In this document: positions 32 through 64,000 of the stretch, one piece after another
Layout: each line of letters opens with the position of its first letter
How positions within the stretch are numbered: position 1 is the stretch's first letter
Origin: an uncultured Sphingobacterium sp.
GTDB taxonomy: Bacteria; Bacteroidota; Bacteroidia; SpSt-205
Direction of reading: 5' to 3'
Length of the DNA: 64,000 nt
Assembly: GCA_964489015.1 (NCBI GenBank)
Contig: CAZAXD010000005.1
Span: 13,521 to 77,520 of the forward strand
Made by a program: the position numbers and the translations under genes
Notes under the pieces: generated by a model
What the model saw: the letters and a program-made list of their open reading frames with translations, nothing else
What the model was told of the DNA's origin: nothing
Database searches by the model: none

Positions 32-805
32 TTACTCTTCTGCACCCAAGGACTGGAGCCACTCGACGATCTCGGAATGCCAACGCTTCTCGGCATAATA
101 GAGAGGCGTTTGGCCCTTGGCGTCCGCTGCGTTGATATCGGCGCCTTTTTCGGCGAGGAGCTTGGCGATATCGAGGTGACCGCGCCAGGCAGCTTCATGG
201 AGGGGTGTACGTCCTTCGTGGTCACGGCTGTGCGGTGAAGCGCCCTTAGCCAAAAGCAGTTCTACCATTTCGATATTGCCGCTGATGACAGACCAGTGGA
301 TAGGATGAACGCCCTTGAGAGTCTGACTATGAAGATCGGCTCCCTTTGCTAGCAAAAACTCCACTACCGGGATGTGTCCATTGTAAACGGCCAAGTGAAG
401 GGGCGTCGAGCCATTTTCGTTGGGCATATCTATGGTGGCGCCATGGTCTACGAGCAGGCGAACGATATCCAGGTAGCCCGCGTGGGCGGCAAGGTGCAAA
501 GGTCGGCTACCGGTGACGGTGGCTGCGTCGGGGTTCGCACCAGCTTTGAGAAGGTACTCTACCATAGTGGCGTGGTTGTGCCTGACAGCTACGTGAAGGG
601 GCGTTTCGCTGTTCTGATCAAGCTCGTTCGGGGAGAGTCCCTTACTAAGGAGCCAAGCCGCTGTCGGCACATGCCCCCCTCTGGCAGCCCAATGCAGCAG
701 CGTCGCGTCGTTAGCGTCCCGGATGGTGATCTCTTCGTCAGGAAGGTGGTGTTGGAGACCCTCTAAGTCCCCTTTGAGGAGAAAATCTTGAAGCTTGGTA
801 TCCAT
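32..805 (-). CDS. Ankyrin-repeat protein
   Basis: The 257-aa ORF contains multiple tandem ~33-aa ANK repeats (TPLHxAxxxGHxxxVxxLLxxGAxxN), for example TPLHVAVRHNHATMVEYLLKAGANPD and TPLHLAVYNGHIPVVEFLLAKGADLH. Confidence 0.8.
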   Translation of the reverse strand: MDTKLQDFLLKGDLEGLQHHLPDEEITIRDANDATLLHWAARGGHVPTAAWLLSKGLSPNELDQNSETPLHVAVRHNHATMVEYLLKAGANPDAATVTGSRPLHLAAHAGYLDIVRLLVDHGATIDMPNENGSTPLHLAVYNGHIPVVEFLLAKGADLHSQTLKGVHPIHWSVISGNIEMVELLLAKGASPHSRDHEGRTPLHEAAWRGHLDIAKLLAEKGADINAADAKGQTPLYYAEKRWHSEIVEWLQSLGAEE

Positions 806-8205: not shown

Positions 8206-9450
8206 ATGCATATGCGGAAGGTGTGTGTAAACCGTTTTTCTCTGCTTTCACTGGGCTTGCTGATGAGTATTTATGCACAACTGCCGCCAAAGCCGGCGTA
8301 TCCATTTGGCATCAAACAGCCACACTGTGGTCACAGTTTGACAGACCCCCTATTTTATCCTTGGCCGGGACAGTTTGTAGAACTGGTGGTGGACATTAAT
8401 GGCCTACGAGGGTGGCAAATATTTCATCCGGCGCCCTTCGCTAATGTGCTAGTGGGCAAGGCAACGCTACCTGGGGCCTGGATCCGGTTTCATTGGGACC
8501 AGACGCTCGCCGCCTGTAACCCAAACTGCTACGATCCGAATTACAACCCGCGCTATGACATTGACAAGTGGGAGCTCCTAATCATTACCGAAAACTATCA
8601 GGGCGTAGCGGATTTCACGATGCAAAATACGCACACCAACCTCCTAAACTTTGTCCAGCATGCCTGGCAAAACGGGAACGGGGGTAACGGCACGCCGGTC
8701 CTCCTCTGGACGAATTGACCCTGCTTAGATGGGTCGGGCTGCTTCTTTACAGGCTACGGCATTCCAGAAGATAATAGCGGTGGCGCTTCGGGCTGGCGAC
8801 AAATGCTGGATTTTCTGGAGTTTCAGGGGGTGGGCAACCAGTACGGCTGGCAGAGACTTCAGGATTATGTCAACGCCAATAGACCCGCCGGCTGCCCACC
8901 GGTTTACATCATCCCCGGTAATCGCATGATGGCGCGCTTTTATGACGATGTGCAAAATAACCTAGTGCCTGGCATTACTAATGTGCGTCAGATTTTCACG
9001 GATGGTGTTCACCTCAATGACACCGGCGCTTACATGGTGACGATGATTCATTATGCGTGTCTCTTCAACAAAAGTCCTGTGGGTCTCAGCAACGCTATCC
9101 ATCCTAATGTCACCCTAGCACCTGCCTTGGCGGCGTACATTCAAAACATGGTCTGAGATGTCGTCACAAACTACCCGCGAAGCGGCGTTCAGGCCCAGGC
9201 GACTGCCATGAGCGGGCTGGGTCAAGGAGAGAAGGCCCCTTTGCAGGCGCACTATCAGGAGGGAATGCTCTACATCTCGGGAGAAGGCCTGAGGGAAGCA
9301 GAGTTTACGATCTATGCGATTACGGGGGAGTTGGTGCTTCGCAGCCGCTCGACGGTTATCGACGTGCAGGGCCTAAATGCCGGCCTATATATCGTGCAGG
9401 AGGTTCGTTACCCTGCGCCGTGCCCTGTGGCTCAAGCTGCGAGGGGATAG
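8206..9450 (+). pseudogene. Disrupted gene for a secreted SGNH-like hydrolase with a T9SS C-terminal sorting domain
   Basis: Three ORFs (8206-8718, 8803-9156, 9208-9450) are all in frame 1 and separated only by single TGA codons at 8716-8718 and 9154-9156. Translation reads straight through both. The first part has a signal peptide. The middle part has an SGNH block-V-like DGVHLNDTGAYMV. The last part has a T9SS CTD-like FTIYAITGELVLRSRSTVIDVQGLNAGLYIVQ that lacks the usual terminal strand. Confidence 0.45.
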
Positions 9451-23268: not shown

Positions 23269-24129
23269 TTAGGCACGGGGATGATATTTTTTGTAAGCTT
23301 CTTTTAGCTGAGCGGGAGAGATGACTAGATATTTCTGCGTGGTGGCGAGGCTGCTGTGACCGAGCATGTCTCTTACGGCTTCTACGGGCAGCCCCCGGTC
23401 TAGCAAATGCGTGGCGATGCTGTGCCGCAGGGCATGGGGGTGCGTTCCGAGGCGAGCCCGGATGATGCGATGCACCGCGCGGCTGTAGAGAGGACGCCCC
23501 GCTGGGGTGCATAGGAGGCGGGCATGGCTGGGATGAAGCCGGCTTCGCTCGGCCAGGTAATGCCGCAGAAGCATCTCTAAACGGGGATAAAGGGGCAACA
23601 CGCGCCAACGCTGCCCCTTGCCTAATATGTGTATCTGTCCGAGTTCAAAATGAATCGAACGAACTTCCAGTGCTAAAGCCTCACTGCGTCGGAGCCCTAA
23701 GCCATATAGCAGTTCAATTAAGACGCGGTCACGTAGGTTGACGAGATCCGTGTCCGTTTCTTGGTCTAGAGCTGATAGCCTAGCTTGTAGCGAGGGTTCG
23801 CTCAGTGCTTTAGGTAAAGCTGGCGACACGCTAGGGGTTTCTAGTCGGAAGGGAAGGCCTTCCCTTCCTGAGATGGTCTTCACAAACTGATCAAATCGCC
23901 TTAAGGTCGTGGCTTTACGGGCGCGAGTAGTGGGATTATCGAAGGTGCTGAGCCAGGCCCGAAGCATATTAGGCCGTACTGCTTGCCAGCCTTCTACGCT
24001 TCCCAAAATATCCACTCCATAAACCTCTTGGCAAAAGTGTTGCCATCCCACGAGATCGCGCCGATACGCTTCTATGGTGCGGGGACTTTTGCCCTCTATC
24101 TCGAGGCGCTGTAAAAAGGCGTCCAACAC
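23269..24129 (-). CDS. Tyrosine site-specific recombinase (XerC/XerD-like integrase)
   Basis: The N-terminal SAM-like core-binding domain is present (SPRTIEAYRRDL). The catalytic residues are present: R in GLRRSEAL, HxxR in HALRHS, and the Tyr nucleophile in ATTQKYL. The start is uncertain: GTG at about 24129, or TTG at 24192. Confidence 0.7.
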   Translation of the reverse strand: MLDAFLQRLEIEGKSPRTIEAYRRDLVGWQHFCQEVYGVDILGSVEGWQAVRPNMLRAWLSTFDNPTTRARKATTLRRFDQFVKTISGREGLPFRLETPSVSPALPKALSEPSLQARLSALDQETDTDLVNLRDRVLIELLYGLGLRRSEALALEVRSIHFELGQIHILGKGQRWRVLPLYPRLEMLLRHYLAERSRLHPSHARLLCTPAGRPLYSRAVHRIIRARLGTHPHALRHSIATHLLDRGLPVEAVRDMLGHSSLATTQKYLVISPAQLKEAYKKYHPRA

Positions 24130-24161
24130 CAAACAAAAGTACGTTTCCTCATCTTTGCAGC

Positions 24162-25013
24162 GTGGGGTACGTCGTTGGCTGTATCGTGACAAGTGCTTTG
24201 CTCCTGGTGTGGCTCCGGCTGTGGCGATTGCCTGTCTTTAGCCTGGTCACAGCTAATTACTTGGTGGCGGTGGCGGCCGCCCTCCTCTTGAGGCCCTTGG
24301 CGAAGGAGCCGCTTGAGCGGCTTCCCCTCGTGGGGTGGCTACACCTGGTGGGGCTAGGTGTGTTGTTTATAACGGTCTTTTTCCTAACGGGTCGTGTTGC
24401 GCGAGAGATGGGGGTAGGCATAGCTGGCATGCTCTCAAAGCTCTCTCTCGTTCTCCCGATTGCTTACTCTGTGCTATTCCTGGGAGAGCCGTTTTCTTTT
24501 AGGCAGGGTGTAGGCGTGGGTTTAGCTTTGGGGGCTATTATCCTTGTGCATGTGCCTTACTTACAAAGAGGTGGGCTACTACGGCTCTGGCAGGCGATGC
24601 GGCTCGGCCTTCTTTTATGGGTAGGCAATGGGGTTATAGACATCGCTTTCAAGTCTGGGCAGGTGTACTGGACGGAAATCCCAGCGGAAAATATTCCCCC
24701 CCTGATTATGGGCACGGCTGGCCTGTTAGGACTGGTCATACATGGCTTGCAGGGCGAATGGCGATCTCTAATCAGTGTCCGTTTGTGGATAGGCGCCTTA
24801 GTATTGGGTCTTACGAATATTGCTTCGGTTATTTTTTACGTCATGGGGCTTCAGACCTTACCAGGGGTGATATTCTTCTTGATCCTGAACCTGGGTATTG
24901 TCATGCTGTCTGGTTTTTTGGGTGTGCTTCTTTTTCGAGAGCGCTTGACGTGGGCAGTTGCCAGCGGCTATCTGCTGGGTCTTTTAGCGATAGGTCTTAT
25001 AAGTTGGTCCTAA
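24162..25013 (+). CDS. DMT/EamA-like 10-TM permease
   Basis: Ten hydrophobic helices. EamA-like motifs sit at the domain ends (VLFLGEPFS). 283 aa. Confidence 0.45.
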   Translation: MGYVVGCIVTSALLLVWLRLWRLPVFSLVTANYLVAVAAALLLRPLAKEPLERLPLVGWLHLVGLGVLFITVFFLTGRVAREMGVGIAGMLSKLSLVLPIAYSVLFLGEPFSFRQGVGVGLALGAIILVHVPYLQRGGLLRLWQAMRLGLLLWVGNGVIDIAFKSGQVYWTEIPAENIPPLIMGTAGLLGLVIHGLQGEWRSLISVRLWIGALVLGLTNIASVIFYVMGLQTLPGVIFFLILNLGIVMLSGFLGVLLFRERLTWAVASGYLLGLLAIGLISWS

Positions 25014-25762
25014 AATGAAGAAGGCCCCCTTTTGGGGGCCGACCGGCTGGACTGACAAGATCGCAACTGATGTGTGAAGAGCAAGAGCCTTCTAAGGGCG
25101 CTTTCGCTCACATCCAGTTTTTGCGTAGAAGATCTAAACTTCTCTATGAATACGAGGGGATCGGGAAACAAACTATTTACTAGCTCAGCTTCTTGCTCTA
25201 ACTCGTCGAAATGAGGGGAGCGCTCCGCCGTGTATTTGATAAGGTACCGGTGCACAAAATGGTTACGCCCCTCGCCAGGAGCTTGGGGCAAAGGATGAGC
25301 GTACAACTCCTGCGGTAAAGATACTTTGAGCCTGCATAACGCAAACAGCCAAGCGGGAATAAGGGGTAGTTCAGAAAACGGAAGATACCGCGCCCACACC
25401 CGCCCGCAGCTGGGTGGAGCAATGACCCCGCGCCCCTCCCATTGAAAATCAACCCCCTCCAACACCTTGCGGGGAAGCTCTGTCAGCTCAGCACGAAAAT
25501 AGTAGTGCGCGCCTCGAGACGTGCGGTAATAGGCACACTCCGTGTTTTGAAGCAGTTGATGCAGGGAGGTATGCAGCAGGGTGCTGCCATCCACATCGAC
25601 AACGAGAAGGCCCAGGCCCGTAAGAATGCCAACATCTGCACCTTCAGGCCAGGTGGCGGGATTATACTTATACGCCTGCCAGCCCGCTGCTAGCGGACGC
25701 TTGCCCTGGGCAGGGTATACCCTGTACCCGTCTCGGACCAGGCGCTCAACTGTTACCGTCAT
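25010..25762 (-). CDS. Bifunctional DNA primase/polymerase (Prim-Pol) N-terminal domain protein
   Basis: It resembles archaeo-eukaryotic primase-like Prim-Pol domains found on plasmids, phages and integrative elements: YPAQGKRPLAAGWQAY, the acidic LLVVDVDG, and the downstream aromatic/His block. Confidence 0.5.
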   Translation of the reverse strand: MTVTVERLVRDGYRVYPAQGKRPLAAGWQAYKYNPATWPEGADVGILTGLGLLVVDVDGSTLLHTSLHQLLQNTECAYYRTSRGAHYYFRAELTELPRKVLEGVDFQWEGRGVIAPPSCGRVWARYLPFSELPLIPAWLFALCRLKVSLPQELYAHPLPQAPGEGRNHFVHRYLIKYTAERSPHFDELEQEAELVNSLFPDPLVFIEKFRSSTQKLDVSESALRRLLLFTHQLRSCQSSRSAPKRGPSSF

Positions 25763-31495: not shown

Positions 31496-32341
31496 ATGCG
31501 GGTCATCTGGGTGGTGGGGCTCGTCTGGGCCCAGGTCAAGGTCGTCAGTGGTACAGCCAGCGTCGAACTGCGTCCTGGCTGGTCTATGGAGCGGGCGCAG
31601 CGAGAAGCCTACCAACTAGCGATCCTCAATGCGCTCCAGACGGGCTTCCCCACCCAAGTCGCCCAAGCTAGTAAGTACCTTCTTCAAAACCGAACCGAGG
31701 GTCAGTCAGCCCAGACTACGACATACTTCTTTCTCACGGCAGACCAGTACCTTGGCGCCGAATGGCTCGAGACCTTGTCTGCTAAATACGAGACCCAGAT
31801 AGAGCGCGGCACGGTCGTAGTCACTTGCAGAGTAAAAGGTCGAGCCCGTGCCCGCGAAGTGCCGGCTATTCCCGTGGAGGTACGTCCTTTGCGCTGTCAA
31901 GATACAGCTTGCTTTACCCTCGATTTTAAGGACGGGGACCCCTTTTATCTGTATGTTCGCGTGCCGGTAGCTGGCTTCGTGCAGGTATTCTGGGAAGAAG
32001 GGGGCGCGATTTATCGCCTTTTGCCGTATCAGGGTATGCGCGTACAAGCGGTGCCCGTCCGACCAGATACGACCTATCTCTTCTTTTCTTTACGCACAGG
32101 CAGCCGTTCTGAAGCCTTCTGGACAGATGAGCTCATTCTCACGGCAGAGCAGCCAGAGGTGTTACATCGGCTGTATTTTCTGTTTTCGCCGAATCCTTTA
32201 GCTGCTCCGCCAGAACGGTACGATGACCGGCGCGGCTTTCATGGGGTAGACATGCAAGCTTTTCATGAATGGCTCTTGAGCGAGCGCCTTCGAGATGAAA
32301 AACTAACCTTGAAAATCCTAGATATAAGCATACGAAAATGA
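31496..32341 (+). CDS. Secreted hypothetical protein (caspase-associated; DUF4384-like by recall)
   Basis: The signal peptide is MRVIWVVGLVWAQV. The gap to the upstream gene is 4 nt. It overlaps the downstream WD40-caspase gene by 4 nt, which suggests translational coupling. Confidence 0.45.
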   Translation: MRVIWVVGLVWAQVKVVSGTASVELRPGWSMERAQREAYQLAILNALQTGFPTQVAQASKYLLQNRTEGQSAQTTTYFFLTADQYLGAEWLETLSAKYETQIERGTVVVTCRVKGRARAREVPAIPVEVRPLRCQDTACFTLDFKDGDPFYLYVRVPVAGFVQVFWEEGGAIYRLLPYQGMRVQAVPVRPDTTYLFFSLRTGSRSEAFWTDELILTAEQPEVLHRLYFLFSPNPLAAPPERYDDRRGFHGVDMQAFHEWLLSERLRDEKLTLKILDISIRK

Positions 32342-34167
32342 AAAGGTTCTGGTGTCTCTTGGGAGTCCTTGCATGGGCTCAACCGTATAAAGATCTGGAA
32401 GGGCATGCGGGTCCTATCAACGCCGTAGCCTTTACCTACGATAGTCACTATTTACTATCAGCGGGTAGCGACCGGCAAGTCGTTTTATGGTCGATCCCAG
32501 GTGGAGATCTCGTTAGCCGATTTCAGGGGGCTACGGCTAGCGTAAACGGTTTGGCGCTACTGCCCGATAGTTCTGGTGTATTTTGGGGCGCCTCCAGCGA
32601 TGGGAAGTTGTATCAGTGGCGGATTCGGAAACCCTCAGAGTGGCGAGCGGAGAACTGGTCTCGGGTTTCTCGTGACAAAGCCGTGGACCTATCTAAGCGC
32701 CTTCAAAAAACGGGACCGCCTATTTTATGGGAAGCGGTGACTATCCATCCCCGAAAGCCGCTCTTGTTTGCCTTAAGCCGGTACGGCCGGCTAGTCAGTT
32801 GGGACATCCAAGAAGAGTGGCTCCAGACGTATACCGACACGGCAGAGGTTGCTTATGCTTTAGCGATGCCGACCCATGGCAAGGTCCTGTACTTAGCGAG
32901 TGGCAGCGGAGCCATATATGCCTTGGACCCTAGTGATCTATCAACCAAAGAGGTTTTACGGGGACATCGAGATGGGGTGAGAGGGCTGGCGATTAGTTAT
33001 GATGATCGCTTGCTAGCTAGCGCGGGCTTAGATGGCAAAGTGATGGTCTGGCAATTACCGGAGGGTTTGCGGATACGGACGCTAGAGGGGCATAAGGACG
33101 GGGTTCGAGCAGTTAGCTTTAGCCCAGATGGTCGATATTTAGCGAGTGCGGGACGGGATGGACTCTTGTGCATCTGGGATGTGGCGACGGGTCAGCTAGC
33201 GAAAAGCCTTTCCTTGCCGAGTTCTCTGTGGGCGGTAGCCTTTAGCCCCAATGGCCAATATCTCGTCGCTGGCGGTAGTGAGGGCTTTTTGCGTCTGTGG
33301 CGTATCGACCAGCTTGGAATTCGCCCGGCCCAAATCCTTTCACCTCGGGATGAACTCTACACCCCTCCCCTTGTGCTCGAAGACGATGTGCCGGTCTGCC
33401 AAAAACCGCGTCCTTATCGGTACGCCTATATCATCGGCAATGAGGACTATCGTTTGTTTCAGCCCACTTTTACCCCGGCTATGAATGTCCCATATGCCGT
33501 TCGGGATGCGTACACCTTTCGGGTCTACGCCGAGCAGATCTTGGGGATACCCCCGCAGAATATTGTTTTTCTTCAAAATGCCACGAGTGCCCAGATGCGC
33601 CGCGAGCTAGACAAGCTATTGATTTTAGCCCAGGCGAGTCGGGGAGAAGCCGAGATATTCTTTTATTATGCGGGGCATGGCGTGCCTCATCCAGAGACAA
33701 AGGAGAGCTATCTCTTGCCAACCGATGCTTCGCCGCGGCAGCCGGAGGAGGGTGGCCTTCGCTTGACGGATATTATTCGGCAATTGGCAGAGAGCGGTGC
33801 CCATCGGGTGTGGCTTGTGGTCGATGCGTGCTTTAGCGGGGGCGCGCGCGAAGAGAGCCCCCTAGCTAGCCGAGGTATCCGCATTCGCCCGCGTCCCATT
33901 CAGCTGCGAGGGCCAACGGTACTATTGGCCGCTAGTAGTGCCGACCAGGAGGCTCTTCCCTATCACCAAGCCCAGCATGGGCTCTTTACCTACTTCCTGC
34001 TAAAAGCGCTGCGAGAGTCCTGCGGGTCTAAGTCTTTAAAAGCTATCTTCGAACAGGCTCGTCTGGAGACGACCCGGTATGGTCTGCTTCTGCATGAGAA
34101 GCTTCAGGAGCCTACTCTCTTAGTCAGTCCTGCTTTGCCCGAAACCGTCCTTTCAGAAAGCTGGTAG
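32338..34167 (+). CDS. Secreted WD40-repeat / caspase-like (peptidase C14) fusion protein
   Basis: The signal peptide is MKRFWCLLGVLAWAQP. There are at least six WD40 repeats (...LASAGLDGKVMVWQL, LASAGRDGLLCIWDV, LVAGGSEGFLRLWRI). The C-terminal caspase fold has the catalytic His in FFYYAGHGVPH and Cys in LVVDACFSGGA. Confidence 0.75.
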   Translation: MKRFWCLLGVLAWAQPYKDLEGHAGPINAVAFTYDSHYLLSAGSDRQVVLWSIPGGDLVSRFQGATASVNGLALLPDSSGVFWGASSDGKLYQWRIRKPSEWRAENWSRVSRDKAVDLSKRLQKTGPPILWEAVTIHPRKPLLFALSRYGRLVSWDIQEEWLQTYTDTAEVAYALAMPTHGKVLYLASGSGAIYALDPSDLSTKEVLRGHRDGVRGLAISYDDRLLASAGLDGKVMVWQLPEGLRIRTLEGHKDGVRAVSFSPDGRYLASAGRDGLLCIWDVATGQLAKSLSLPSSLWAVAFSPNGQYLVAGGSEGFLRLWRIDQLGIRPAQILSPRDELYTPPLVLEDDVPVCQKPRPYRYAYIIGNEDYRLFQPTFTPAMNVPYAVRDAYTFRVYAEQILGIPPQNIVFLQNATSAQMRRELDKLLILAQASRGEAEIFFYYAGHGVPHPETKESYLLPTDASPRQPEEGGLRLTDIIRQLAESGAHRVWLVVDACFSGGAREESPLASRGIRIRPRPIQLRGPTVLLAASSADQEALPYHQAQHGLFTYFLLKALRESCGSKSLKAIFEQARLETTRYGLLLHEKLQEPTLLVSPALPETVLSESW

Positions 34168-46874: not shown

Positions 46875-48791
46875 ATGCAACGCTCAACGATAATCTCTTT
46901 GGTCGGGATCGTGGTCATGGGGCTTACGGGGCCCTCTGAGACGGCCCGTGCGTATTACAGCAAAGCTGTGGAGTACCATCAGCGTAAAGACTACCAGGCA
47001 GCCGTGCAGCAGCTAAATCTATCGATCCAAGAAGCACCTGATTTTTGAGAAGCATGGATTTTATATGTGCCTACGCTGCGTAATCAGCTGAAAGCGGACT
47101 CCCTATTACAGCTGGGGCGGGCTCTTCGGGGGCTCATGCCTGATTCGCGAACAGCCCGGGCTTTGAGTTACTACCTAGAAGGCCATGGGTACTACTACAA
47201 GATGTGGTATGACTCTGCCAAGGCAGCCTTTGCAACCTTTTTGCGGTGGCCTTCTAAGCAGTTGCCCGAGGAAATTTATGAGGAGGCTGGCCGGCTAGCT
47301 GAGCAGGCGTTGGAGGTGGCTAAGATCGTCCAAGACTCCATCCAGTCTCGTCCCAAACTTTTGCCCGCTTCCGTGAATACCGGTTATGAAGAGACCTTCC
47401 CCCGACTAACCGCGGATGGTCGTAAGCTGTTTTTTACTACCACGAGACCCAAGCGGGGCAGTTCGTCAACTAAAGAGGGGGATGAAGACATATACTGGGG
47501 TCAGCGTGATGCCACAGGACAGTGGCTGCCCGCTCAGCCCATAGGGGACCCGTCAATACATCTAAACATGATGGGGCAGCCTTTTTCTCTTCGGATGGGC
47601 AATGGGTATGCTTCGGGCGCTGCTGGGCTTTGGATGGCCTAGGCAGTTGTGACATGTATATCTCCTATTTAGAGGGGGAGAAATGGCTGCCTCCGCAAAA
47701 CATGGGAGCCCCTGTCAATAGCTCCAACTGGGATACCCAGCCTTGCATTTCGCACGACCGGAAGCGAATATACTTCTCATCGGATCGGCCAGGCGGTTAG
47801 GTGATGCAGACATTTGGTACATAGAATGGCGAAATGGTGCCTGGCAGGAGCCCGTCAATATAGGCGCCCCTATCAACACACCCGGAAATGAATACCATCC
47901 CATGGTAACGGCAGATGGTAGAACGCTTTACTTCAATTCTGATCGGCATCCTGGCTTAGGCGGCCTTGATATTTTTGTGAGCTATTATACAGACACAGGT
48001 TGGACAAACCTAAAAATCTAGGCGCGCCTATCAATACGCCCGCTGATGAGAGAGGGATCTTTGTGGATGCTTCCGGTAAGATAGCCTATGCCTCGCTGGA
48101 AAGGCCGAAAGGTTTCGGGAAAGCGGATATTTACAGCTTTGAACTTCCGCCGGCGGTACGGCCCTATCAGTTAGCGACCTATGTGTGGAGCTTTGTGCGT
48201 GATAAAGAGTCGCGTCAGCCCTTACAAGCGCGAGTCATCATTATCAACCTGGCGAAGCAGGACACCTTGCGTGACTTAGGTAGTAATAAAGCAAGTGGCG
48301 AGTTTGTAACCTCGCTGCCGCTCCAGGAGCGCTATGGGCTATTTGTAGAGGTGCCAGGTTATTTGTCTTACACTGCACATTTTGACCTCATGCGGGCTGA
48401 TACCGCTTATGAGATAGAGGTGTGGTTAGAAAAGCCCAAGAAAGGAAGTCGGCTAACCCTGCAGAATGTCTTTTTTGACTTTGACAAAGCGACGCTGAAG
48501 CCTGAGTCTCGGACAGAGCTCATGGAAGTGGTGCGCTTTCTGCGGGAAAATCCTAAGGTGCGGGTAGAGGTCGAGGGTCACACGGATAGTGTCGGCCGAG
48601 CGGATTACAACCTGCAGCTTTCTCAGCGGCGAGCCGAAGCGGTACGGTCTTTTCTAGTAGAGCAGGGCGTCGATCCAAGTCGGTTGACAGCGCGGGGTTA
48701 CGGTTCTAATCGGCCCGTAGCAGACAATCGTACCGAGACTGGGCGAGCCCAAAATCGTCGCGTAGAACTCCTCTTCGTAGACGCACCCTGA
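46875..48791 (+). pseudogene. Decayed paralog of the downstream TPR-PD40-OmpA gene
   Basis: There are five collinear ORF fragments. One (46875-47046) ends in a TGA. The others start at 47067 (frame 3), 47522 (frame 2), 47743 (frame 1) and 48000 (frame 3). Each aligns segment by segment with 48946-50868. Examples are TADGRKLFFTTTRPK vs TADGRRLYFTSRRPK, and EGHTDSVGRADYNLQLSQRRAEAV vs QGHTDSVGSAAYNLQLSQRRAEAV. At least three frameshifts and one nonsense codon are present. Confidence 0.6.
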
Positions 48792-48877: not shown

Positions 48878-48908
48878 ATAAAGCGCCCCCGTAAGGGGGC
48901 GCTTTGTT
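48878..48908 (+). terminator. Rho-independent terminator-like hairpin
   Basis: The sequence is agcgccccc-gtaa-gggggcgct, a 9-bp GC-rich stem, followed by ttgtttgggg. It lies between the pseudogene and the intact paralog. Confidence 0.5.
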
Positions 48909-48945
48909 TGGGGCTTGGTGCGATGATTTGTTGTATCTTAGTAAA

Positions 48946-50868
48946 GTGATACGTTTCCTCTTTGTAATAATAGCCTGGGCCCTGGCTCAGCCGCCCAGGG
49001 GCATCTCCAAGCGGGCGTACGAACTGTATAATCAGGCTATTCGCTCTATGCAGGCGCGGCGCATGGCAGAAGCGCGCAGCCTTTTAGAACAAGCTCTGCG
49101 GCTCGAGCCGCAGTACGAAGAGGCCTGGGTGCTATTAGGGCGGGTTGCGCTCTCGGAACGTGACCCGATAGGTCTTCTGGAGGCAGGTCAGGGGCTTTTG
49201 AGATTAGGCAAAGGTTCCCCAGAGGCTAAGCCCTGGGGATGGTACTTCCAAGGGAAGGCTTATCTCATCCAAGAGCGTTATGCAGATGCGGCAGCGATTT
49301 TAGATAGTACTGTTCGGCAGGGAGCCGGTATACTTCCCAAGCGGGTTTATGAGGAGGCGGCTCTGCTTCAGGTGCAGAGCCGACACGCAGCGCAGTTTCG
49401 GGCGAATCCCGTTCCGCTGCGCCTTGAAAATTTAGGTCCTGCGGTGAATAGCCCTTATGATGAGTATCTGCCGAGCCTAACAGCGGATGGTCGGCGATTG
49501 TATTTTACCTCTCGCCGCCCTAAGTCGGGGGTGCCAGTCAATCCGTTGCAGGGGCCCGATGAGGACCTGTATTGGTCTGAGCGGGAAGGAACGGACTGGC
49601 TAGCCTGCAAGCCGCTGGGCTCCCCTATCAATACCCCCCAAAACGAGGGGGCGGCCTTTTTTTCAGCTGATGGCCAATGGGCTTTTTTGACCCTTTGCGA
49701 CCGAAAGGACGGATTCGGTTCCTGTGATCTGTACTTCTCTCGTCTAGAGGGTGAAGAGTGGTTACCCCCTCAAAACTTAGGGCCTCTCGTGAATAGTCCT
49801 GAATGGGAGTCCCATCCGAGCCTAACACATGATCGCAGGCGCTTGTACTTTGCCTCCGGGCGAAAAGGGGGAGCAGGGGGGGCGGATATTTGGTACACGG
49901 AGTGGCGCGAGGGGGCCTGGCAGCCGCCTGTCAATCTCGGTCCTCCTATCAATACGCCCGGCAATGAGTATTCCCCCATGATCGCAGCCGATGGGCGCAC
50001 CCTTTACTTTGCCTCCGATTATCACCCAGGGCTAGGGGGCATGGATTTATTTGTAGCTTACCTTACGGATACAGGCTGGACCCAGCCACGAAACTTAGGT
50101 TATCCGCTCAATACGGCTGGAGACGAACAGACATTGTGTGTGGATGCAGCGGGGCAGATGGCGTATGTTGCGCTACAGCGGGCGGAGGGCCTAGGGCGAC
50201 TAGATATTTATCGCTTTCCACTCTGGCCGGAGGCTCGGCCGCAAGAGGTGGCTACTTATGTACGAGGTCTTGTTCGGGATAAAGCCTCGGCTAAGCCTTT
50301 AGAGGCCCGCATTTTCATCGTGGATCTGGCGCGGCGAGATACGGTGCGCAGCCTCTCCAGCAACAGGGTCTCTGGTGAATTTCTGACGTCTCTACCGCTG
50401 GGGCGGCGCTATGCGTTGTATGCTCAGGCGCCCGGTTATTTATTTTATAGTGGCCACTTTGACTTGACTCAGCTAGACACGGCCTATGAACTGGTGGTAG
50501 TTTTAGAGCGTCCCGTGCGCGGTAGTCAGCTCATGCTACAAAATATCTTTTTTGACTTTGATAAGGCGACCCTCAAGCCAGAGTCCGAGGTCGAGCTGCG
50601 GGAGGTCGTTAGATTGCTCTTAGCCTATCCTCGGGCTCGGGTAGAGATCCAGGGGCATACGGATAGTGTGGGCAGTGCCGCTTATAATCTGCAGCTCTCT
50701 CAGCGACGCGCGGAAGCCGTGCGCGACTTTCTGATTTCCCAAGGCATAGCGGCGGATCGTTTGACAGCGCGGGGTTACGGTCACACTCGTCCCATTGCCG
50801 ATAATCGCACAGAGGAAGGCCGGGCTCGCAACCGCCGTACCGAACTCGTTTTCTTAGAAGTACCTTAG
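48946..50868 (+). CDS. TPR - PD40 (WD40-like/TolB-type beta-propeller) - OmpA C-terminal domain protein
   Basis: GTG start at VIRFLFVIIAWALAQP. N-terminal TPR region. Repeated PD40 blades (INTPGNEYSPMIAADGRTLYFASD). C-terminal OmpA-like peptidoglycan-binding domain (LQNIFFDFDKATLKPES...GHTDSVGSAAYNLQLSQRRAEAVRDFL...GYG...NRRTE). Confidence 0.75.
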   Translation: MIRFLFVIIAWALAQPPRGISKRAYELYNQAIRSMQARRMAEARSLLEQALRLEPQYEEAWVLLGRVALSERDPIGLLEAGQGLLRLGKGSPEAKPWGWYFQGKAYLIQERYADAAAILDSTVRQGAGILPKRVYEEAALLQVQSRHAAQFRANPVPLRLENLGPAVNSPYDEYLPSLTADGRRLYFTSRRPKSGVPVNPLQGPDEDLYWSEREGTDWLACKPLGSPINTPQNEGAAFFSADGQWAFLTLCDRKDGFGSCDLYFSRLEGEEWLPPQNLGPLVNSPEWESHPSLTHDRRRLYFASGRKGGAGGADIWYTEWREGAWQPPVNLGPPINTPGNEYSPMIAADGRTLYFASDYHPGLGGMDLFVAYLTDTGWTQPRNLGYPLNTAGDEQTLCVDAAGQMAYVALQRAEGLGRLDIYRFPLWPEARPQEVATYVRGLVRDKASAKPLEARIFIVDLARRDTVRSLSSNRVSGEFLTSLPLGRRYALYAQAPGYLFYSGHFDLTQLDTAYELVVVLERPVRGSQLMLQNIFFDFDKATLKPESEVELREVVRLLLAYPRARVEIQGHTDSVGSAAYNLQLSQRRAEAVRDFLISQGIAADRLTARGYGHTRPIADNRTEEGRARNRRTELVFLEVP

Positions 50869-59429: not shown

Positions 59430-60686
59430 TTAAGAAAGCTCCAAGCCAACGACGAGGATGTCGTCGGTTTGTACATGATCGGCTTGCCACGAAGCGATCG
59501 TAGCCGCAAGCGTCTCCTTTTGGCTACTAATAGGTAAATTTTGAAGGTCTCGTAAGTACTCCAGCCAAGCGCGGGAGCCCCAACGCTTCCCCTGGGAACC
59601 GCCCCGCTGGTCATAAACGCCGTCCGTATAGAAGTACAAGCGGTCCCCGGGGGCAAGCTCGATCGTGATCTCCTGGGCGGCGTGTCCGACGAGCTCCCCA
59701 AAGCTAAAGGGATGGGGATCGAGGCGGGTAACTACACCGCCTCGGACCCAAGCAGCTTTCCCCTTGAGCGCCACGTAATGAAGCTTACGGCGATTGAGGT
59801 CGATAAGGGCGATGGTACCATCTACCGTGAGAGAATGGGGAAGCTTCTGTCGGAAAAGAAGACCCAGCCGGCTGTCTAGCTCTTCGGCCAGCATTTCAGG
59901 ACTCCATAGGCCTTTATCTTGGACCAAATGCTGAAGCTCTTGGATAAATAATGTACTCACAAACGCTCCGCTCACACCATGACCGATACTGTCCCCCACA
60001 AATACAATCAAACGGCCTTTCTCCTCGTGCATCCACACAAAATCCCCGCTTACCATCTGAAGCGGTTTATATAGCACAAAGTAGGGTACACTGTACGGTG
60101 TAGCAGACCCTTCTAATAGGGGCGGCATGAGCATCGTTTGCAGCTGACCAGCGAAGTGGAGATTTTGTCTGATTTCTTCGGACAGGAGCGCGCTTTCTTG
60201 GCGTAGCTGCGCTTCGAGGTCTTTTTGGCGGGTGATGTCCACCCGCATGGAGATGTATCGGTAAGGGTAACCCTCACTGTCTAACAGGGGGCCGACTGTG
60301 GCCAACACCCAGTAGTGGGAGCCATCCTTGCGGCGGTTTTTGACCTCACCCTGCCAGATCTTGCCGGCCTTGATAGTGTCCCAGAGCTCCTTGAAGACAC
60401 TCTTGGGCATATCGGGGTGGCGTATGATATTATGGGGCTTTCCAATCAACTCATCCATCGTATAGCCCGAGACCTCGCAGAACTTTTTATTGGCGTAGGT
60501 GATAATACCCCGTGTGTCGGTTTCAGTGACTAAGGCAAATTGGTTAACAAGCGCTGTGCGGTCACGAAGCTCACGCTGATAGGCCGCCATCTGCTCAGAG
60601 ATCTGGGCGTAGGAACTCTCATACTGGGAGAGGTGGGAAGAAAGTTCTTGAACGAGCTTGACAATGTCACTGGATAGAATACTCAT
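59430..60686 (-). CDS. PAS-domain PP2C/SpoIIE-type serine phosphatase (tandem copy A)
   Basis: An N-terminal coiled coil and a PAS fold are present (GIITYANKKFCEVSGYTMDELIGKPHNIIRHPDM...DGSHYWV). The C-terminal PP2C has the motifs DFVWMH...FVGDSIGHGVSGAF and, at the end, DDILVVGLE. Confidence 0.75.
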   Translation of the reverse strand: MSILSSDIVKLVQELSSHLSQYESSYAQISEQMAAYQRELRDRTALVNQFALVTETDTRGIITYANKKFCEVSGYTMDELIGKPHNIIRHPDMPKSVFKELWDTIKAGKIWQGEVKNRRKDGSHYWVLATVGPLLDSEGYPYRYISMRVDITRQKDLEAQLRQESALLSEEIRQNLHFAGQLQTMLMPPLLEGSATPYSVPYFVLYKPLQMVSGDFVWMHEEKGRLIVFVGDSIGHGVSGAFVSTLFIQELQHLVQDKGLWSPEMLAEELDSRLGLLFRQKLPHSLTVDGTIALIDLNRRKLHYVALKGKAAWVRGGVVTRLDPHPFSFGELVGHAAQEITIELAPGDRLYFYTDGVYDQRGGSQGKRWGSRAWLEYLRDLQNLPISSQKETLAATIASWQADHVQTDDILVVGLELS

Positions 60687-62386
60687 AACGCGGGCTGATC
60701 AGGGCACCAGACAAATTTAGGAATAATTTAGGAATAATTGCTAGCATACTTTGGGGAGACCCTGAAGCTTGGGCGGCCTATCCTAAACCAGCCACAGCGC
60801 ACACCCGCCCTTAGACCACCTCAAGCCCTACCACCAAGATATCATCGGTTTGGGGGTGGTCCTTTTGCCAAGCGCTAATGGCTTCTTCGATGCTTTCACG
60901 CTGCCCTAGAAAGGGAACGCTTTGAATGTCTTTGAGAAACTCCATCCAGGAGCGGGACCCCCATCGTCTATCTCGGGGCCCTCCTTTCTGATCATAAACG
61001 CCGTCCGTATAGAAGTACAAGCGGTCCCCGGGGGCAAGCTCGATCGTGATCTCCTGGGCGGCGTGTCCGACGAGCTCCCCAAAGCTAAAGGGATGGGGAT
61101 CGAGGCGGGTAACTACACCGCCTCGGACCCAAGCAGCTTTCCCCTTGAGCGCCACGTAATGAAGCTTACGGCGATTGAGGTCGATAAGGGCGATGGTACC
61201 ATCTACCGTGAGAGAATGGGGAAGCTTCTGTCGGAAAAGAAGACCCAGCCGGCTGTCTAGCTCTTCGGCCAGCATTTCAGGACTCCATAGGCCTTTATCT
61301 TGGACCAAATGCTGAAGCTCTTGGATAAATAATGTACTCACAAACGCTCCGCTCACACCATGACCGATACTGTCCCCCACAAATACAATCAAACGGCCTT
61401 TCTCCTCGTGCATCCACACAAAATCCCCGCTTACCATCTGAAGCGGTTTATATAGCACAAAGTAGGGTACACTGTACGGTGTAGCAGACCCTTCTAATAG
61501 GGGCGGCATGAGCATCGTTTGCAGCTGACCAGCGAAGTGGAGATTTTGTCTGATTTCTTCGGACAGGAGCGCGCTTTCTTGGCGTAGCTGCGCTTCGAGG
61601 TCTTTTTGGCGGGTGATGTCCACCCGCATGGAGATGTATCGGTAAGGGTAACCCTCACTGTCTAACAGGGGGCCGACTGTGGCCAACACCCAGTAGTGGG
61701 AGCCATCCTTGCGGCGGTTTTTGACCTCACCCTGCCAGATCTTGCCGGCCTTGATAGTGTCCCAGAGCTCCTTGAAGACACTCTTGGGCATATCGGGGTG
61801 GCGTATGATATTATGGGGCTTTCCAATCAACTCATCCATCGTATAGCCCGAGACCTCGCAGAACTTTTTATTGGCGTAGGTGATAATACCCCGTGTGTCG
61901 GTTTCAGTGACTAAGGCAAATTGGTTAACAAGCGCTGTGCGGTCACGAAGCTCACGCTGATAGGCCGCCATCTGCTCAGAGATCTGGGCGTAGGAACTCT
62001 CATACTGGGAGAGGTGGGAAGAAAGTTCTTGAACGAGCTTGACAATGTCACTGGATAGAATACTCATAACGCGGGCTGATCAGGGCACCAGACAAATTTA
62101 GGAATAATTTAGGAATAATTGCTAGCATACTTTGGGGAGACCCTGAAGCTTGGGCGGCCTATCCTAAACCAGCCACAGCGCACACCCGCCCTTAGACCAC
62201 CTCAAGCCCTACCACCAAGATATCATCGGTTTGGGGGTGGTCCTTTTGCCAAGCGCTAATGGCTTCTTCGATGCTTTCACGCTGCCCTAGAAAGGGAACG
62301 CTTTGAATGTCTTTGAGAAACTCCATCCAGGAGCGGGACCCCCATCGTCTATCTCGGGGCCCTCCTTTCTGATCATAAACGCCGTC
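59608..62386. repeat. Perfect direct tandem duplication, 2 x 1381 bp
   Basis: Lines 59581-60989 are identical, as far as can be read, to lines 60962-62370 at an offset of exactly 1381 bp. This includes the 124-bp intergenic spacer with its internal aatttaggaataa x2 mini-repeat. The repeat ends fall inside the phosphatase ORFs. Confidence 0.85.
60811..62067 (-). CDS. PAS-domain PP2C/SpoIIE-type serine phosphatase (tandem copy B, chimeric)
   Basis: Residues 1 to about 371 are identical to copy A. The last about 47 residues are identical to the C-terminus of copy C. Confidence 0.75.
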   Translation of the reverse strand: MSILSSDIVKLVQELSSHLSQYESSYAQISEQMAAYQRELRDRTALVNQFALVTETDTRGIITYANKKFCEVSGYTMDELIGKPHNIIRHPDMPKSVFKELWDTIKAGKIWQGEVKNRRKDGSHYWVLATVGPLLDSEGYPYRYISMRVDITRQKDLEAQLRQESALLSEEIRQNLHFAGQLQTMLMPPLLEGSATPYSVPYFVLYKPLQMVSGDFVWMHEEKGRLIVFVGDSIGHGVSGAFVSTLFIQELQHLVQDKGLWSPEMLAEELDSRLGLLFRQKLPHSLTVDGTIALIDLNRRKLHYVALKGKAAWVRGGVVTRLDPHPFSFGELVGHAAQEITIELAPGDRLYFYTDGVYDQKGGPRDRRWGSRSWMEFLKDIQSVPFLGQRESIEEAISAWQKDHPQTDDILVVGLEVV

Positions 62387-63405
62387 TGTATAGAGATAGA
62401 GTCGGTCTTTAGGGGCCAATTCTATGATAGTTTCTTTGATGGGTCTATTTTGCAGTTCGCCAAAGCTGAAGGGATAGGACTCGAGACGAGTGATAACGCC
62501 ATTGCCACAATGAGCGGCCTTGCCTTTTAGGGCGACGTAGTGGAGCTTACGGCGGCTCAGGTCGAGCATGGCAATCGTGCCATCCACAGTAACGGACTGC
62601 GACAGTTTTTGACGGAATAGCTGCCCTAGTCGCCTATCGAGCTCCTTGCTAGCAGTTCGGGGCTCCAGAGCCCTCGGTCGATGACAAAGCATCGCAACTC
62701 TCGTATGAACAAAGCGCTTACGAAAGCCCCGCTGACGCCATGACCGATGCTATCTCCTACGAAGAGCACGATGCGGCCTTTGTCCTGGTGAGCCCAGGCA
62801 AAGTCCCCACTAACCCAACGGAGCGCTTTATGCAAGACAAAGTAGGGTAAGTCGATAAAATGACGCTCTGCCAGGAGGGGAGGCATGAGGGCTTTCTGCA
62901 GGTGGGCAGCGAAAGCCAGATTTTGCAAGATTTCCTCAGCTAGCTCTTTTTGGTGGGTGATATCGACTCGTACGGATACATACCATTGAGGATGCCCCTC
63001 TGCATCTAAGACAGGTCCAACGGTGGCTAAGACCCAATAAGAAGAGCCGTCTTTACGTCGATTTTTGATTTCTCCTTGCCAGATTTGGCCTGCTTTGAGG
63101 GTTTCCCAGAAGTTTTTGAAGACTTCTTTGGGCATGTCGGGTTGTCGTACGATATTGTGGGGTTTGCCGAGGAGTTCTTCTAACGTATAGCCGGAGACCT
63201 CGCAAAATTTGGGATTGGCATACTGGATCACGCCGCGGGTGTCGGTTTCGCTAATGAGGGCAAAGCGATCTAGAATAGCGAGGCGGTCGCGTAGCTCCTG
63301 CTGGGACGATCGTAGCTTTTTGGAAAAATCGTCCATCACCTCCTGCATCATACGCAGGGGATCCTGGGTAGCATCGTAAACGGTCATGGACAGAAACTTT
63401 TTCAA
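62192..63405 (-). pseudogene. PAS-PP2C phosphatase paralog (tandem copy C), frameshifted
   Basis: The N-terminal ORF (63405-62626) has a divergent PAS and PP2C start. The C-terminal ORF (62692-62192) is in another frame, and they overlap. The break is right after GLWSPELLA. This is either a true frameshift or a sequencing error. Confidence 0.5.
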
Positions 63406-64000
63406 AATGAATTAGACACAATAACCATGTCAGAGTGACGAAGGGGCCGGACAAGCATGGAAGCGAAGCTCGCGTACTAATTATTTTTGCTTTATGCCCT
63501 TCGAAACCCTAGCCCAGTGTCAAGATTTCAATGCAATTTGTAATGAAAAAACACACACCCCTTGCTGCTACTGCGGCGCACAATTGGGGGGTGTGCGCTT
63601 ACTGACTGTATGAGATAAAATACAAGATGGGTTTTGGGAAGGTTGCTTGAAGGGGTGGTAAACGGAACTTTGGTTCGGAGGCATAAGAAAACGTTCCCTA
63701 AGAGAGGGCCAAATCTGTCACTATAGGACTAGCGACGAGATTCGTAAACAGCCTTGCCTATTTGGTAAAATAGCCTAATTCCAACTAGGTCACAAGTGGA
63801 CCCTTTAGCATGTAATAAGTAAATGCAAAGCACTACGTGAAAAAACAGCTTAGCAGATCGAAGCCTGATGCCGTTCTAAGGCCAGGTGCCGTATTTGCGC
63901 AGGGGGGCCGAGTTCGCTTCTTGTGTCTTAAACGGCTTGGAGGCGGTGTTTTTGCTGGAGGTAAGCCTGGAGAATATCGTGATAGCTAGAGTGGCGGGCG

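What the first reader, a model, noticed from the sequence alone, without database searches (positions are those of the whole stretch)
59430..63405. Perfect 1381-bp tandem duplication creating a mosaic array of three PAS-PP2C phosphatase genes
Three consecutive minus-strand genes encode PAS + SpoIIE/PP2C phosphatases. Copies A (59430-60686) and B (60811-62067) share a body of about 1.1 kb that is 100 % identical at the DNA level. Copies B and C share an identical 3' end plus the upstream spacer. The result is two perfect 1381-bp repeat units laid over three genes. B is a chimera of A's body and C's C-terminus. C's body is divergent and frameshifted. This pattern indicates a very recent unequal-crossover or gene-conversion event and a locus prone to copy-number change. 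The differing C-terminal 47 residues may alter partner specificity.
Basis: seen in the sequence. Interest (0 to 1): 0.7.

Follow-up and report, generated by a model that had tools for sequence, protein, structure and literature searches.

The report
Recent tandem duplication making chimeric phosphatase gene
A 1381-bp stretch spanning parts of two old neighbouring sensor-phosphatase genes has been copied head to tail without a single difference, creating a third, hybrid gene; this is a clean but ordinary example of how bacterial gene families grow, and it rests on one metagenome assembly.

Summary
Window 59611-61005 is identical, base for base, to 60992-62386. That gives two perfect 1381-bp units plus a 14-bp overlap, laid over three minus-strand PAS + PP2C (SpoIIE-type) genes. 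A (59430-60686) and C (62192-63405) are old paralogs: 64% amino-acid identity, synonymous sites saturated. B (60811-62067) is an exact hybrid of A's promoter-bearing spacer and first 1076 bp with C's last 195 bp.

The join lies in GACGGCGTTTATGA, which encodes the DGVYD motif. This is the longest exact in-register match between A and C. That points to one microhomology-mediated unequal exchange (an 'anti-Lepore' topology), not gene conversion.

C carries a 1-base deletion near 62647 but is otherwise well conserved.

Syntenic loci in related hot-spring Bacteroidia MAGs hold one or two divergent copies and never a near-identical pair. Copy number at this locus therefore does vary, and this event is lineage-specific and recent.

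The proteins look like Aer/MmoS-type FAD-PAS redox sensors joined by a coiled coil to a SiaA/RsbP-like phosphatase.

The 27 substitutions in B's tail are conservative and sit at variable positions. Nothing supports a change of partner specificity.

The sequence exists in only one NCBI contig. Reads could not be checked, so an assembly loop artefact or a different true copy number remains possible. This is a new member of a known kind, of modest interest.

The parts
59430..60686 (-). Gene A: intact 418-aa PAS - coiled-coil - PP2C (SpoIIE-type) phosphatase. Ortholog of the single or first copy in related genomes (76% aa identity to L001/L002).
   Evidence: ORF; Pfam PAS_3 1.7e-20 and SpoIIE 9.7e-25; identity matrix and tree; AlphaFold model with pLDDT 90.
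59611..60991 (.). Repeat unit 1 (1381 bp): A codons 1-359, the 124-bp spacer and the last 181 bp of B.
   Evidence: Exact self-match at offset 1381.
60992..62372 (.). Repeat unit 2 (1381 bp), 100% identical to unit 1: B codons 1-359, the 124-bp spacer and the last 181 bp of C.
60811..62067 (-). Gene B: intact 418-aa chimera. Residues 1-360 are identical to A. Residues 361-418 are identical to C's C-terminus (27 substitutions relative to A).
   Evidence: Called as a separate protein in the source record (cluster of 2 members on one contig).
62192..63405 (-). Gene C: divergent paralog (64% aa identity to A) interrupted by a 1-base deletion. A probable recent pseudogene, or a sequencing error. 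The likely real start is the ATG at 63387.
   Evidence: Overlapping ORFs 62626-63405 and 62192-62692. The repaired reading frame aligns end to end with A. pS 0.85 and pN 0.23 versus A. Only 1 of 34 invariant family columns is violated.
62644..62655 (-). Frameshift site in C: CTGCTAGCAAGG, where ...GCN AAG GAG... is expected. The first frame stops 8 codons later, at 62626-62628.
   Evidence: Sequence; repair test; alignment to A.
59611..59624 (-). Junction microhomology GACGGCGTTTATGA (codes D-G-V-Y-D), copy in A. Parental site 1.
60992..61005 (-). Same 14-mer in B: the novel join (A-type sequence 5' of it on the coding strand, C-type 3' of it).
62373..62386 (-). Same 14-mer in C. Parental site 2.
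60687..60810 (-). Spacer upstream of A. It holds a Bacteroidota-type -7 promoter motif TAAATTTG (60712-60719) 26 nt before the ATG, and an 11-bp direct repeat ATTATTCCTAA x2.
   Evidence: Sequence. TAnnTTTG is enriched in the window (47 found against 26.5 expected) and typically precedes gene starts.
62068..62191 (-). Identical spacer upstream of B with the same TAAATTTG (62093-62100). B therefore inherited A's putative promoter.

Best explanation
The ancestral locus was X - C - A - PNP-like - aminotransferase IV, with two old tandem paralogs. Each encoded a cytoplasmic sensor phosphatase: an Aer/MmoS-type PAS domain (probably FAD-binding), a coiled-coil linker and a PP2C domain.

A single recent unequal exchange between misaligned sister chromosomes joined C's 3' end to A's body. 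The join fell at the 14-bp microhomology GACGGCGTTTATGA inside the conserved DGVYD motif. This duplicated 1381 bp head to tail. The duplicated unit carries A's promoter-bearing spacer, so the product is a complete, probably expressed third gene, B: A residues 1-360 plus C residues 361-418. The topology C - (A/C hybrid) - A matches that of the human anti-Lepore globin duplication.

B keeps A's sensor, linker and switch helices. It most likely acts as extra dosage of A and can probably heterodimerise with it. Its C-terminal helices differ only conservatively.

The two perfect 1.4-kb repeats are now a substrate for homologous loss or further amplification. The array is therefore either very young or held by selection.

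Shown: the repeat, the chimera, the junction, the age contrast between the A/C split and the new duplication, and the comparative copy numbers.

Inferred: the molecular pathway (template switching or slipped misalignment rather than RecA crossover), expression of B, FAD binding, the phosphatase substrate, and any fitness effect.
For: - Exact 1395-bp self-match at offset 1381.
- The junction 14-mer is the longest exact in-register match between genes A and C. The next longest are 13 and 11 bp. Flanking homology is only 83% over the best 35 bp. That is below what classical homologous recombination is classed by in PMC-indexed preprint 10.64898/2026.05.22.727201 (>=35 bp at >=92%; 5-25 bp counts as the microhomology class).
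- Microhomology-mediated tandem duplication is reported as the dominant route to tandem duplications across life (10.64898/2026.02.28.708716).
- A and C are saturated at synonymous sites (pS 0.85) with pN 0.23, whereas the units differ at 0 of 1381 bp.
- Synteny holds on both flanks: gene X upstream and PNP_UDP_1 plus Aminotran_4 downstream.
- The related genomes examined at this interval show 1 or 2 copies. Their paralogs are at most 77% identical at the DNA level, and none has a B-like chimera.
- C's best hit among 5.8 billion proteins is its own neighbour A.
- Both A and B were called as genes on the same 106,965-bp NCBI contig.
- Protein nature: Pfam; PDB sequence hits to MmoS 3ewk (3e-41), Aer PAS 8dik (1e-33) and SiaA PP2C 6k4e (9e-32); fold matches to SiaA (TM 0.91), RssB, SpoIIE and RsbX; a model with a long linker helix at residues 152-185 and switch helices at 237-257 and 263-278, all inside the A-derived part.
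- The coiled-coil and switch mechanism for RsbU/RsbP-type phosphatases is described in PMC12143880.
- All 27 tail substitutions lie at variable columns.
Against: - Only one assembly holds this sequence. It is not in the gene-position index, so there is neither read-level nor independent-assembly support.
- A 1381-bp perfect repeat is longer than short reads. If the contig came from short reads, the number of loop traversals (the copy number) was chosen by the assembler. The sample may also mix genomes with and without the duplication.
- No STAS or anti-sigma kinase partner, and no RsbQ-like hydrolase, is encoded in the 64-kb window. The pathway served is unknown.
- Expression from the TAAATTTG motif is inferred only.
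Confidence: 0.75

Rival explanations
1. Assembly artefact or unresolved loop. The assembler traversed a repeat loop that does not exist in any single genome as written. Examples: junction k-mers from a minor strain variant or from PCR/library chimeras between the paralogs, or a long-read mis-join later polished to identity.
For: The source is a single metagenome-type NCBI contig of 106,965 bp with no second assembly. Perfect identity of the two units is what a collapsed-then-expanded repeat would also show. The unit (1381 bp) exceeds short-read length, so the copy number cannot be resolved by k-mers.
Against: The two breakpoints fall at exactly homologous codons of two genes that are only about 65% identical, within a 14-bp shared word. 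That word is shorter than usual assembly k-mers, so the graph would not branch there without real reads containing the join. Assemblers normally collapse tandem repeats rather than expand them. The product is a clean in-frame gene. No other perfect repeat exists in the 64-kb window.
Confidence: 0.18
2. Gene conversion within a pre-existing three-gene array. Three old paralogs existed, and one long shifted-register conversion tract overwrote B's body and C's 3' end with A's body and B's 3' end.
For: Tandem paralog arrays of up to three PAS-PP2C genes exist in relatives (L052/L053). Conversion between tandem paralogs is common in general.
Against: It needs a 1395-bp tract copied in a register shifted by exactly one gene period, including two non-homologous spacers. 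No sign of earlier homogenisation exists between A and C (pS saturated). No relative has three genes inside the X-PNP interval. A single duplication explains every feature with one event.
Confidence: 0.04
3. The duplication is real and is maintained by selection. Two versions are possible. It could be an adaptive amplification for a higher dose of the A-type sensor phosphatase. Or it could replace the inactivated C with a working gene that carries C's tail.
For: Unselected perfect 1.4-kb tandem repeats are lost quickly by homologous recombination (established knowledge of bacterial duplications). Yet this form is the consensus of the assembled population. C is frameshifted while B re-uses C's 3' end. 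The family shows repeated lineage-specific expansions.
Against: There are no population, expression or fitness data. Zero differences fit a neutral, very young event equally well. The order in time of C's frameshift and the duplication is unknown.
Confidence: 0.2

Closest known systems
Microhomology-mediated tandem duplication / unequal exchange between tandem paralogs (anti-Lepore haemoglobin and opsin-array type hybrids)
   Same: A head-to-tail duplication whose single new junction lies at homologous positions of two neighbouring paralogs. It yields parent - hybrid - parent. The junction sits in a short exact homology (14 bp), within the 5-25 bp class.
   Different: A bacterial metagenome contig with no read or population evidence. 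The parents are far more diverged (about 65% nt identity) than the globin or opsin pairs. The anti-Lepore and opsin comparison comes from my own knowledge, not from a tool.
RsbP, the energy-stress PAS - coiled-coil - PPM phosphatase of Bacillus subtilis (with RsbQ)
   Same: The same three-part architecture. The long linker helix and the alpha1/alpha2 switch helices are predicted. The mechanism of linker-controlled dimeric activation is described for this class (PMC12143880, PMC3183031).
   Different: No adjacent alpha/beta-hydrolase (RsbQ) and no RsbV/RsbW-like genes in the window. The PAS domain is of the Aer/MmoS FAD type rather than the RsbP-PAS class. The phylum is Bacteroidota. A related genome does pair one such gene with a hydrolase (L052).
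SiaA PP2C domain of Pseudomonas aeruginosa (PDB 6k4e) and other SpoIIE/RsbU-family phosphatases (RssB, SpoIIE, RsbX)
   Same: The best sequence and fold match for residues 156-414: E 9e-32, 30% identity, TM 0.91. The conserved metal-binding Asp columns are present.
   Different: SiaA has a membrane/HAMP N-terminus. Here the sensor is a cytoplasmic PAS domain. The substrate is unknown.
FAD-binding PAS domains of E. coli Aer (8dik), MmoS (3ewk) and NifL (2gj3)
   Same: 46-54% identity to the Aer PAS, with the HNxxRHPDMP motif invariant in the family.
   Different: The output is a phosphatase, not a chemoreceptor or kinase. Copy C has Q in place of the invariant H. The cofactor is not demonstrated.

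Membership tests
PPM/PP2C phosphatase, SpoIIE-type (PF07228) | Pfam SpoIIE domain above the gathering score | tested here: met
   A 88.1 bits and B 80.3 bits against a cut-off of 25. C only scores in two pieces (19.6 and 49.5 bits) because of the frameshift.
PPM/PP2C phosphatase, SpoIIE-type (PF07228) | Conserved metal-binding aspartates and glycines (SGDF, GDxxGHG, DG, TDG, DD motifs) | tested here: met
   D232, G231, G237, D289 and D409 are invariant. D215, D296, D355, G356 and D408 are at least 90% conserved in 61 relatives and are present in A, B and repaired C.
PPM/PP2C phosphatase, SpoIIE-type (PF07228) | PP2C fold | tested here: met
   Model pLDDT 90.2. Foldseek match to SiaA-PP2C at TM 0.91; also RssB, SpoIIE and RsbX.
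PPM/PP2C phosphatase, SpoIIE-type (PF07228) | Mn2+/Mg2+-dependent phosphoserine phosphatase activity | not testable with these tools
   Needs an enzyme assay.
RsbP/RsbQ energy-stress module | PAS - coiled-coil - PPM architecture | tested here: met
   PAS at residues 52-150, helix at 152-185, PP2C at 200-418.
RsbP/RsbQ energy-stress module | Adjacent RsbQ-type alpha/beta-hydrolase gene | tested here: not met
   The neighbours are gene X, a PNP_UDP_1-family gene and an aminotransferase IV gene. A hydrolase neighbour is seen only in another genome (L052).
RsbP/RsbQ energy-stress module | RsbV/RsbW-type (STAS / anti-sigma kinase) partners nearby | tested here: not met
   No STAS or HATPase anti-sigma domain among 47 translated ORFs of the window, nearly all of those of at least 120 aa. 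Small ORFs under 120 aa were not scanned, and the rest of the genome is unseen.
Aer/MmoS/NifL-type FAD-binding PAS | Close sequence and fold similarity to solved FAD-PAS domains, including the RHPDMP motif | tested here: met
   E 1e-33 to 8dik and 3e-41 to 3ewk. R89, H90 and P91 are invariant. C has H90Q.
Aer/MmoS/NifL-type FAD-binding PAS | FAD bound and redox-responsive | not testable with these tools
   Needs purified protein.
Tandem segmental duplication by unequal / microhomology-mediated exchange | Two identical units head to tail with no intervening sequence | tested here: met
   59611-60991 = 60992-62372, 0 mismatches.
Tandem segmental duplication by unequal / microhomology-mediated exchange | Unit ends lie at short homology present once at each parental site | tested here: met
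   The 14-mer occurs at 59611, 60992 and 62373 and is the longest in-register A/C match.
Tandem segmental duplication by unequal / microhomology-mediated exchange | Unduplicated state in relatives | tested here: inconclusive
   Syntenic loci in other species have 1-2 diverged copies and no chimera. No genome of the same species was available, and C has no ortholog anywhere.
Tandem segmental duplication by unequal / microhomology-mediated exchange | Junction and copy number supported by sequencing reads | not testable with these tools
   No reads. There is a single assembly.

The most novel reading that the evidence does not exclude
The array is a snapshot of ongoing birth-and-death evolution of redox-sensing PAS-PP2C phosphatases in a natural hot-spring Bacteroidia population. 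A microhomology-mediated duplication, kept at high frequency by selection, has just created a promoter-equipped hybrid gene. That gene salvages the C-terminal module of a freshly inactivated paralog. This would be a rare in-the-wild capture of the very first step of paralog innovation by module shuffling in a signalling family.
Probability: 0.15. Interest if true: 0.45.

Novelty: new member of a known kind. Interest (0 to 1): 0.3.

Why it matters
If reads confirm it, this is a tidy natural example of how a bacterial signalling-gene family expands. One microhomology event at a conserved catalytic motif gives an in-frame hybrid gene with its own promoter, next to a decaying older paralog.

It flags the locus as copy-number unstable. 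That matters for MAG curation, since the true copy number may be collapsed or mis-stated, and for strain-level population studies.

It does not reveal a new mechanism or a new kind of system. Both the proteins (FAD-type PAS - PP2C sensors) and the duplication route are well-known kinds.

Tried and rejected
- Exact-protein look-ups of A, B, P0001 and the window's DXS in the gene-position index all returned nothing. The source contig, its name or assembler, and other assemblies of the same strain could not be retrieved.
- The genome and metagenome scans found only other species, at most 76-81% aa identity. There is no same-species two-gene allele.
- I looked for remnants of a further PAS-PP2C copy in the 530-bp gap upstream of C and found none.
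- I looked for recent duplicates or conversion tracts in relatives' arrays. None exceeded 77% nt identity between the genes.
- I considered programmed frameshifting for C and rejected it. There is no slippery heptamer at CTAGCAAGGAG, and a -1 shift would be needed (sequence; inference).
- I considered that C had long been a pseudogene and rejected it. pN is much lower than pS against A, dN/dS is about 0.1 against orthologs of A, and only 5 of 84 conserved columns are violated.
- Rfam and tRNA scans of the window were empty.
- The sigma-70 promoter and terminator scan gave nothing meaningful in the spacers.
- A second structure prediction for B was not run. AlphaFold is insensitive to 27 conservative changes.
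Full report
**1. Observation**

A scan of the window against itself at offset 1381 shows one uninterrupted exact match of 1395 bp: 59611-61005 = 60992-62386. This is two perfect 1381-bp units (59611-60991 and 60992-62372) plus a third copy of the first 14 bp (62373-62386). On either side the identity at that offset falls to 56-74% in the homeologous coding sequence, then to background.

The ORF list gives three consecutive minus-strand genes:
- A, 59430-60686 (418 aa).
- B, 60811-62067 (418 aa).
- C, split into 62626-63405 (259 aa) and 62192-62692 (166 aa).

All carry PAS_3 plus SpoIIE/PP2C domains. A and B are identical over codons 1-359 and protein residues 1-360. The 124-bp spacers upstream of A and of B are identical. 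The last 195 bp of B and of C are identical.

A and B differ at 79 of the last 181 bases, giving 27 substitutions in residues 361-418. Otherwise the description is accurate.

**2. Anatomy of the join**

All three genes contain GACGGCGTTTATGA on the coding strand, encoding the D-G-V-Y-D of the PP2C 'TDG' motif. Upstream of it B equals A. Downstream of it B equals C.

This 14-mer is the longest exact in-register match between genes A and C; the next are 13 and 11 bp. The best 35-bp window around it is only 83% identical. By the criteria used in a recent tool paper for bacterial tandem duplications, this is a microhomology junction and not a classical homologous-recombination one. Those criteria are an HR signature of >=35 bp at >=92% identity and a microhomology class of 5-25 bp (10.64898/2026.05.22.727201). 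Microhomology-mediated tandem duplication is reported as the dominant way tandem duplications form (10.64898/2026.02.28.708716).

The resulting order on the coding strand is C - hybrid (5' A / 3' C) - A. This is the topology of the duplication product of unequal exchange between tandem paralogs, as in anti-Lepore haemoglobin (my own knowledge).

**3. Age**

A and C are old paralogs. They share 64% aa identity. The proportion of synonymous differences is 0.85, which is saturated, and pN is 0.23. Against that background, 0 differences in 1381 bp marks one very recent event.

There is no sign of earlier homogenisation between A and C. Gene conversion within a pre-existing three-gene array would need a 1395-bp tract copied in a register shifted by exactly one gene period, across non-homologous spacers. 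I rate it unlikely.

**4. Comparative context**

The source is one NCBI contig of 106,965 bp, on which A, B and the N-terminal piece of C were all called as proteins. It is not retrievable from the position index.

The nearest relatives are hot-spring Bacteroidia/Bacteroidota MAGs and JGI metagenome contigs, at no more than 76-81% aa identity.

Synteny is conserved on both sides:
- A 152-aa gene X lies upstream. Its C-terminus ...ARHSSY(H/Q)DILQAY... is recognisable at window 63936-64000.
- A PNP_UDP_1-family gene plus a class-IV aminotransferase lie downstream.

Within that interval relatives have one PAS-PP2C gene (L001/L002, L006, L007, L020-L028, some with an extra distant PP2C-only gene) or two (L003, L004, L005, L008). 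Another genome has three on one contig in a different context (L052/L053). Paralogs inside other genomes are at most 77% identical at the DNA level, and none is a chimera.

A is the ortholog of the L001-type gene (76%). C is a long-branch orphan, sister to the whole A clade. Its best hit among 5.8 billion proteins is its own neighbour A.

The family therefore shows repeated lineage-specific gain and loss at this locus. That supports 'prone to copy-number change'. The present duplication is specific to this lineage.

**5. Copy C**

The frameshift is a single missing base in CTGCTAGC[N]AAGGAG (62644-62655). Inserting one base restores an uninterrupted 398/404-aa protein that aligns with A to the end.

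C violates only 1 of 34 invariant and 4 of 50 near-invariant family columns, which is within the range of intact members. dN/dS against orthologs of A is about 0.1. C was therefore functional until recently, or the frameshift is an error.

Two features are notable:
- H90Q in the otherwise invariant RHPDMP motif of the PAS domain.
- An 11-residue deletion in the coiled-coil linker.

A second tandem pair in the window, 46875-48791 beside 48904-50868, also has one copy broken by several frameshifts. This suggests real decay of redundant paralogs rather than random indel error.

**6. What the proteins are**

- The PAS domain matches the FAD-binding PAS domains of MmoS (3ewk, 3e-41), E. coli Aer (8dik, 1e-33, 46-54% identity) and NifL.
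- The C-terminal half matches the SiaA PP2C domain (6k4e, 9e-32, TM 0.91), then RssB, SpoIIE and RsbX.
- The AlphaFold model (pLDDT 90.2) has an N-terminal helix, the PAS fold, a long linker helix (152-185), and a PP2C domain with the two 'switch' helices at 237-257 and 263-278.

This is the RsbP-like architecture. For it, a coiled-coil linker and switch-helix dimer mechanism has been described (PMC12143880, PMC3183031).

The most likely function is a cytoplasmic redox or energy sensor that dephosphorylates a partner-switching substrate. That is inference. No STAS, anti-sigma kinase or RsbQ-like hydrolase gene is in the 64-kb window. I therefore do not file it as an RsbP/RsbQ module.

**7. Consequence of the chimera**

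The duplicated unit includes the whole spacer. The spacer carries TAAATTTG, a match to the Bacteroidota -7 element TAnnTTTG, 26 nt upstream of each ATG. This motif is enriched in the window (47 found against 26.5 expected) and commonly precedes gene starts. B thus probably has A's promoter.

B keeps A's sensor, linker and switch helices. The swapped part is two C-terminal helices (371-381, 386-401) and the last strand with the invariant DD motif. All 27 differences sit at variable alignment columns. Most are conservative, and many of B's residues are common in relatives.

B is therefore best seen as a second dose of A with a mildly different tail. The suggestion of altered partner specificity has no support.

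**8. Artefact question**

I could not test this, as there are no reads and no second assembly.

Arguments for a real event:
- The breakpoints are at exactly homologous codons of genes only about 65% identical.
- They fall in a shared word shorter than normal assembly k-mers, so the join must be present in reads.
- Assemblers collapse tandem repeats rather than expand them.
- The product is in frame.
- No other perfect repeat occurs in the window.

Arguments for caution:
- A 1.4-kb perfect repeat cannot be counted by short reads.
- The true copy number, and the fraction of the population carrying the duplication, are unknown.

My estimates are about 0.75 for a real recent duplication, about 0.18 for an artefact or mis-stated structure, and about 0.04 for conversion.

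**9. Verdict**

This is a clean, recent, microhomology-mediated tandem duplication creating a hybrid paralog in a family that often varies in copy number. It is a new member of known kinds and of modest interest (0.3).

Noticed in passing
window 46875-48791 (+), beside 48904-50868 (+): A tandem upstream paralog of the intact 654-aa TPR-PD40-OmpA gene. It is broken into at least five overlapping ORF pieces (several frameshifts) and is about 65% nt identical to the intact copy. This is a second decayed tandem paralog in the same window.
   Followed up: partly
window 63406-63935 (-): An unusually long (about 530 bp) non-coding gap between the conserved upstream gene X and gene C; relatives have about 60 bp here. 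It contains a strong GC hairpin followed by a U-run at about 63544-63600 (terminator-like). There is no Rfam hit, no PAS-PP2C remnant and no match in related loci.
   Followed up: partly
L052 4923-11254 and L053 (GCA_053497655.1 / GCA_053497415.1): A related genome carries three diverged PAS-PP2C genes on one contig. The second is overlapped at its stop by an alpha/beta-hydrolase gene (8226-9434). This pairing is reminiscent of RsbP/RsbQ in Bacillus, here in Bacteroidota.
   Followed up: no
window 62192-63405 (-), protein C: C has Gln in place of the His that is invariant in 61 relatives within the Aer-type RHPDMP PAS motif. It also has an 11-residue deletion in the coiled-coil linker. It may have had altered cofactor binding or signalling before the frameshift.
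   Followed up: partly
window-wide; e.g. 2094, 3445, 5080, 7364, 41430, 42298, 48857, 51477, 54793 (+): TAnnTTTG (the Bacteroidota -7 promoter motif) is enriched, 47 found against 26.5 expected. It often lies 5-40 nt upstream of gene starts.
   Followed up: partly
window 23269-25762 (-): A tyrosine integrase (23269-24192) and a Prim-Pol-domain gene (25010-25762) sit close together. This may be a remnant of a small integrated element.
   Followed up: no
window 20168-22372 (+); 32338-34167 (+); 32-805 (-): Other signalling or eukaryote-like domain proteins: a 734-aa TPR-SpoIIE phosphatase (27% identical to A in the PP2C part), a WD40-caspase (Peptidase_C14) protein, and an ankyrin-repeat protein.
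   Followed up: no
L029 7412-8646 and L030 10001-11235: The A-like orthologs in two JGI metagenome contigs align in two overlapping pieces (residues 1-210 and 201-417). This suggests frameshifts there too, either sequencing error or independent inactivation.
   Followed up: no
window 60724-60745 and 62105-62126 (-): An 11-bp direct repeat ATTATTCCTAA x2 lies immediately upstream of the -7-like motif in both spacers. It could be a regulator binding site. It is not conserved upstream of orthologs in relatives.
   Followed up: partly
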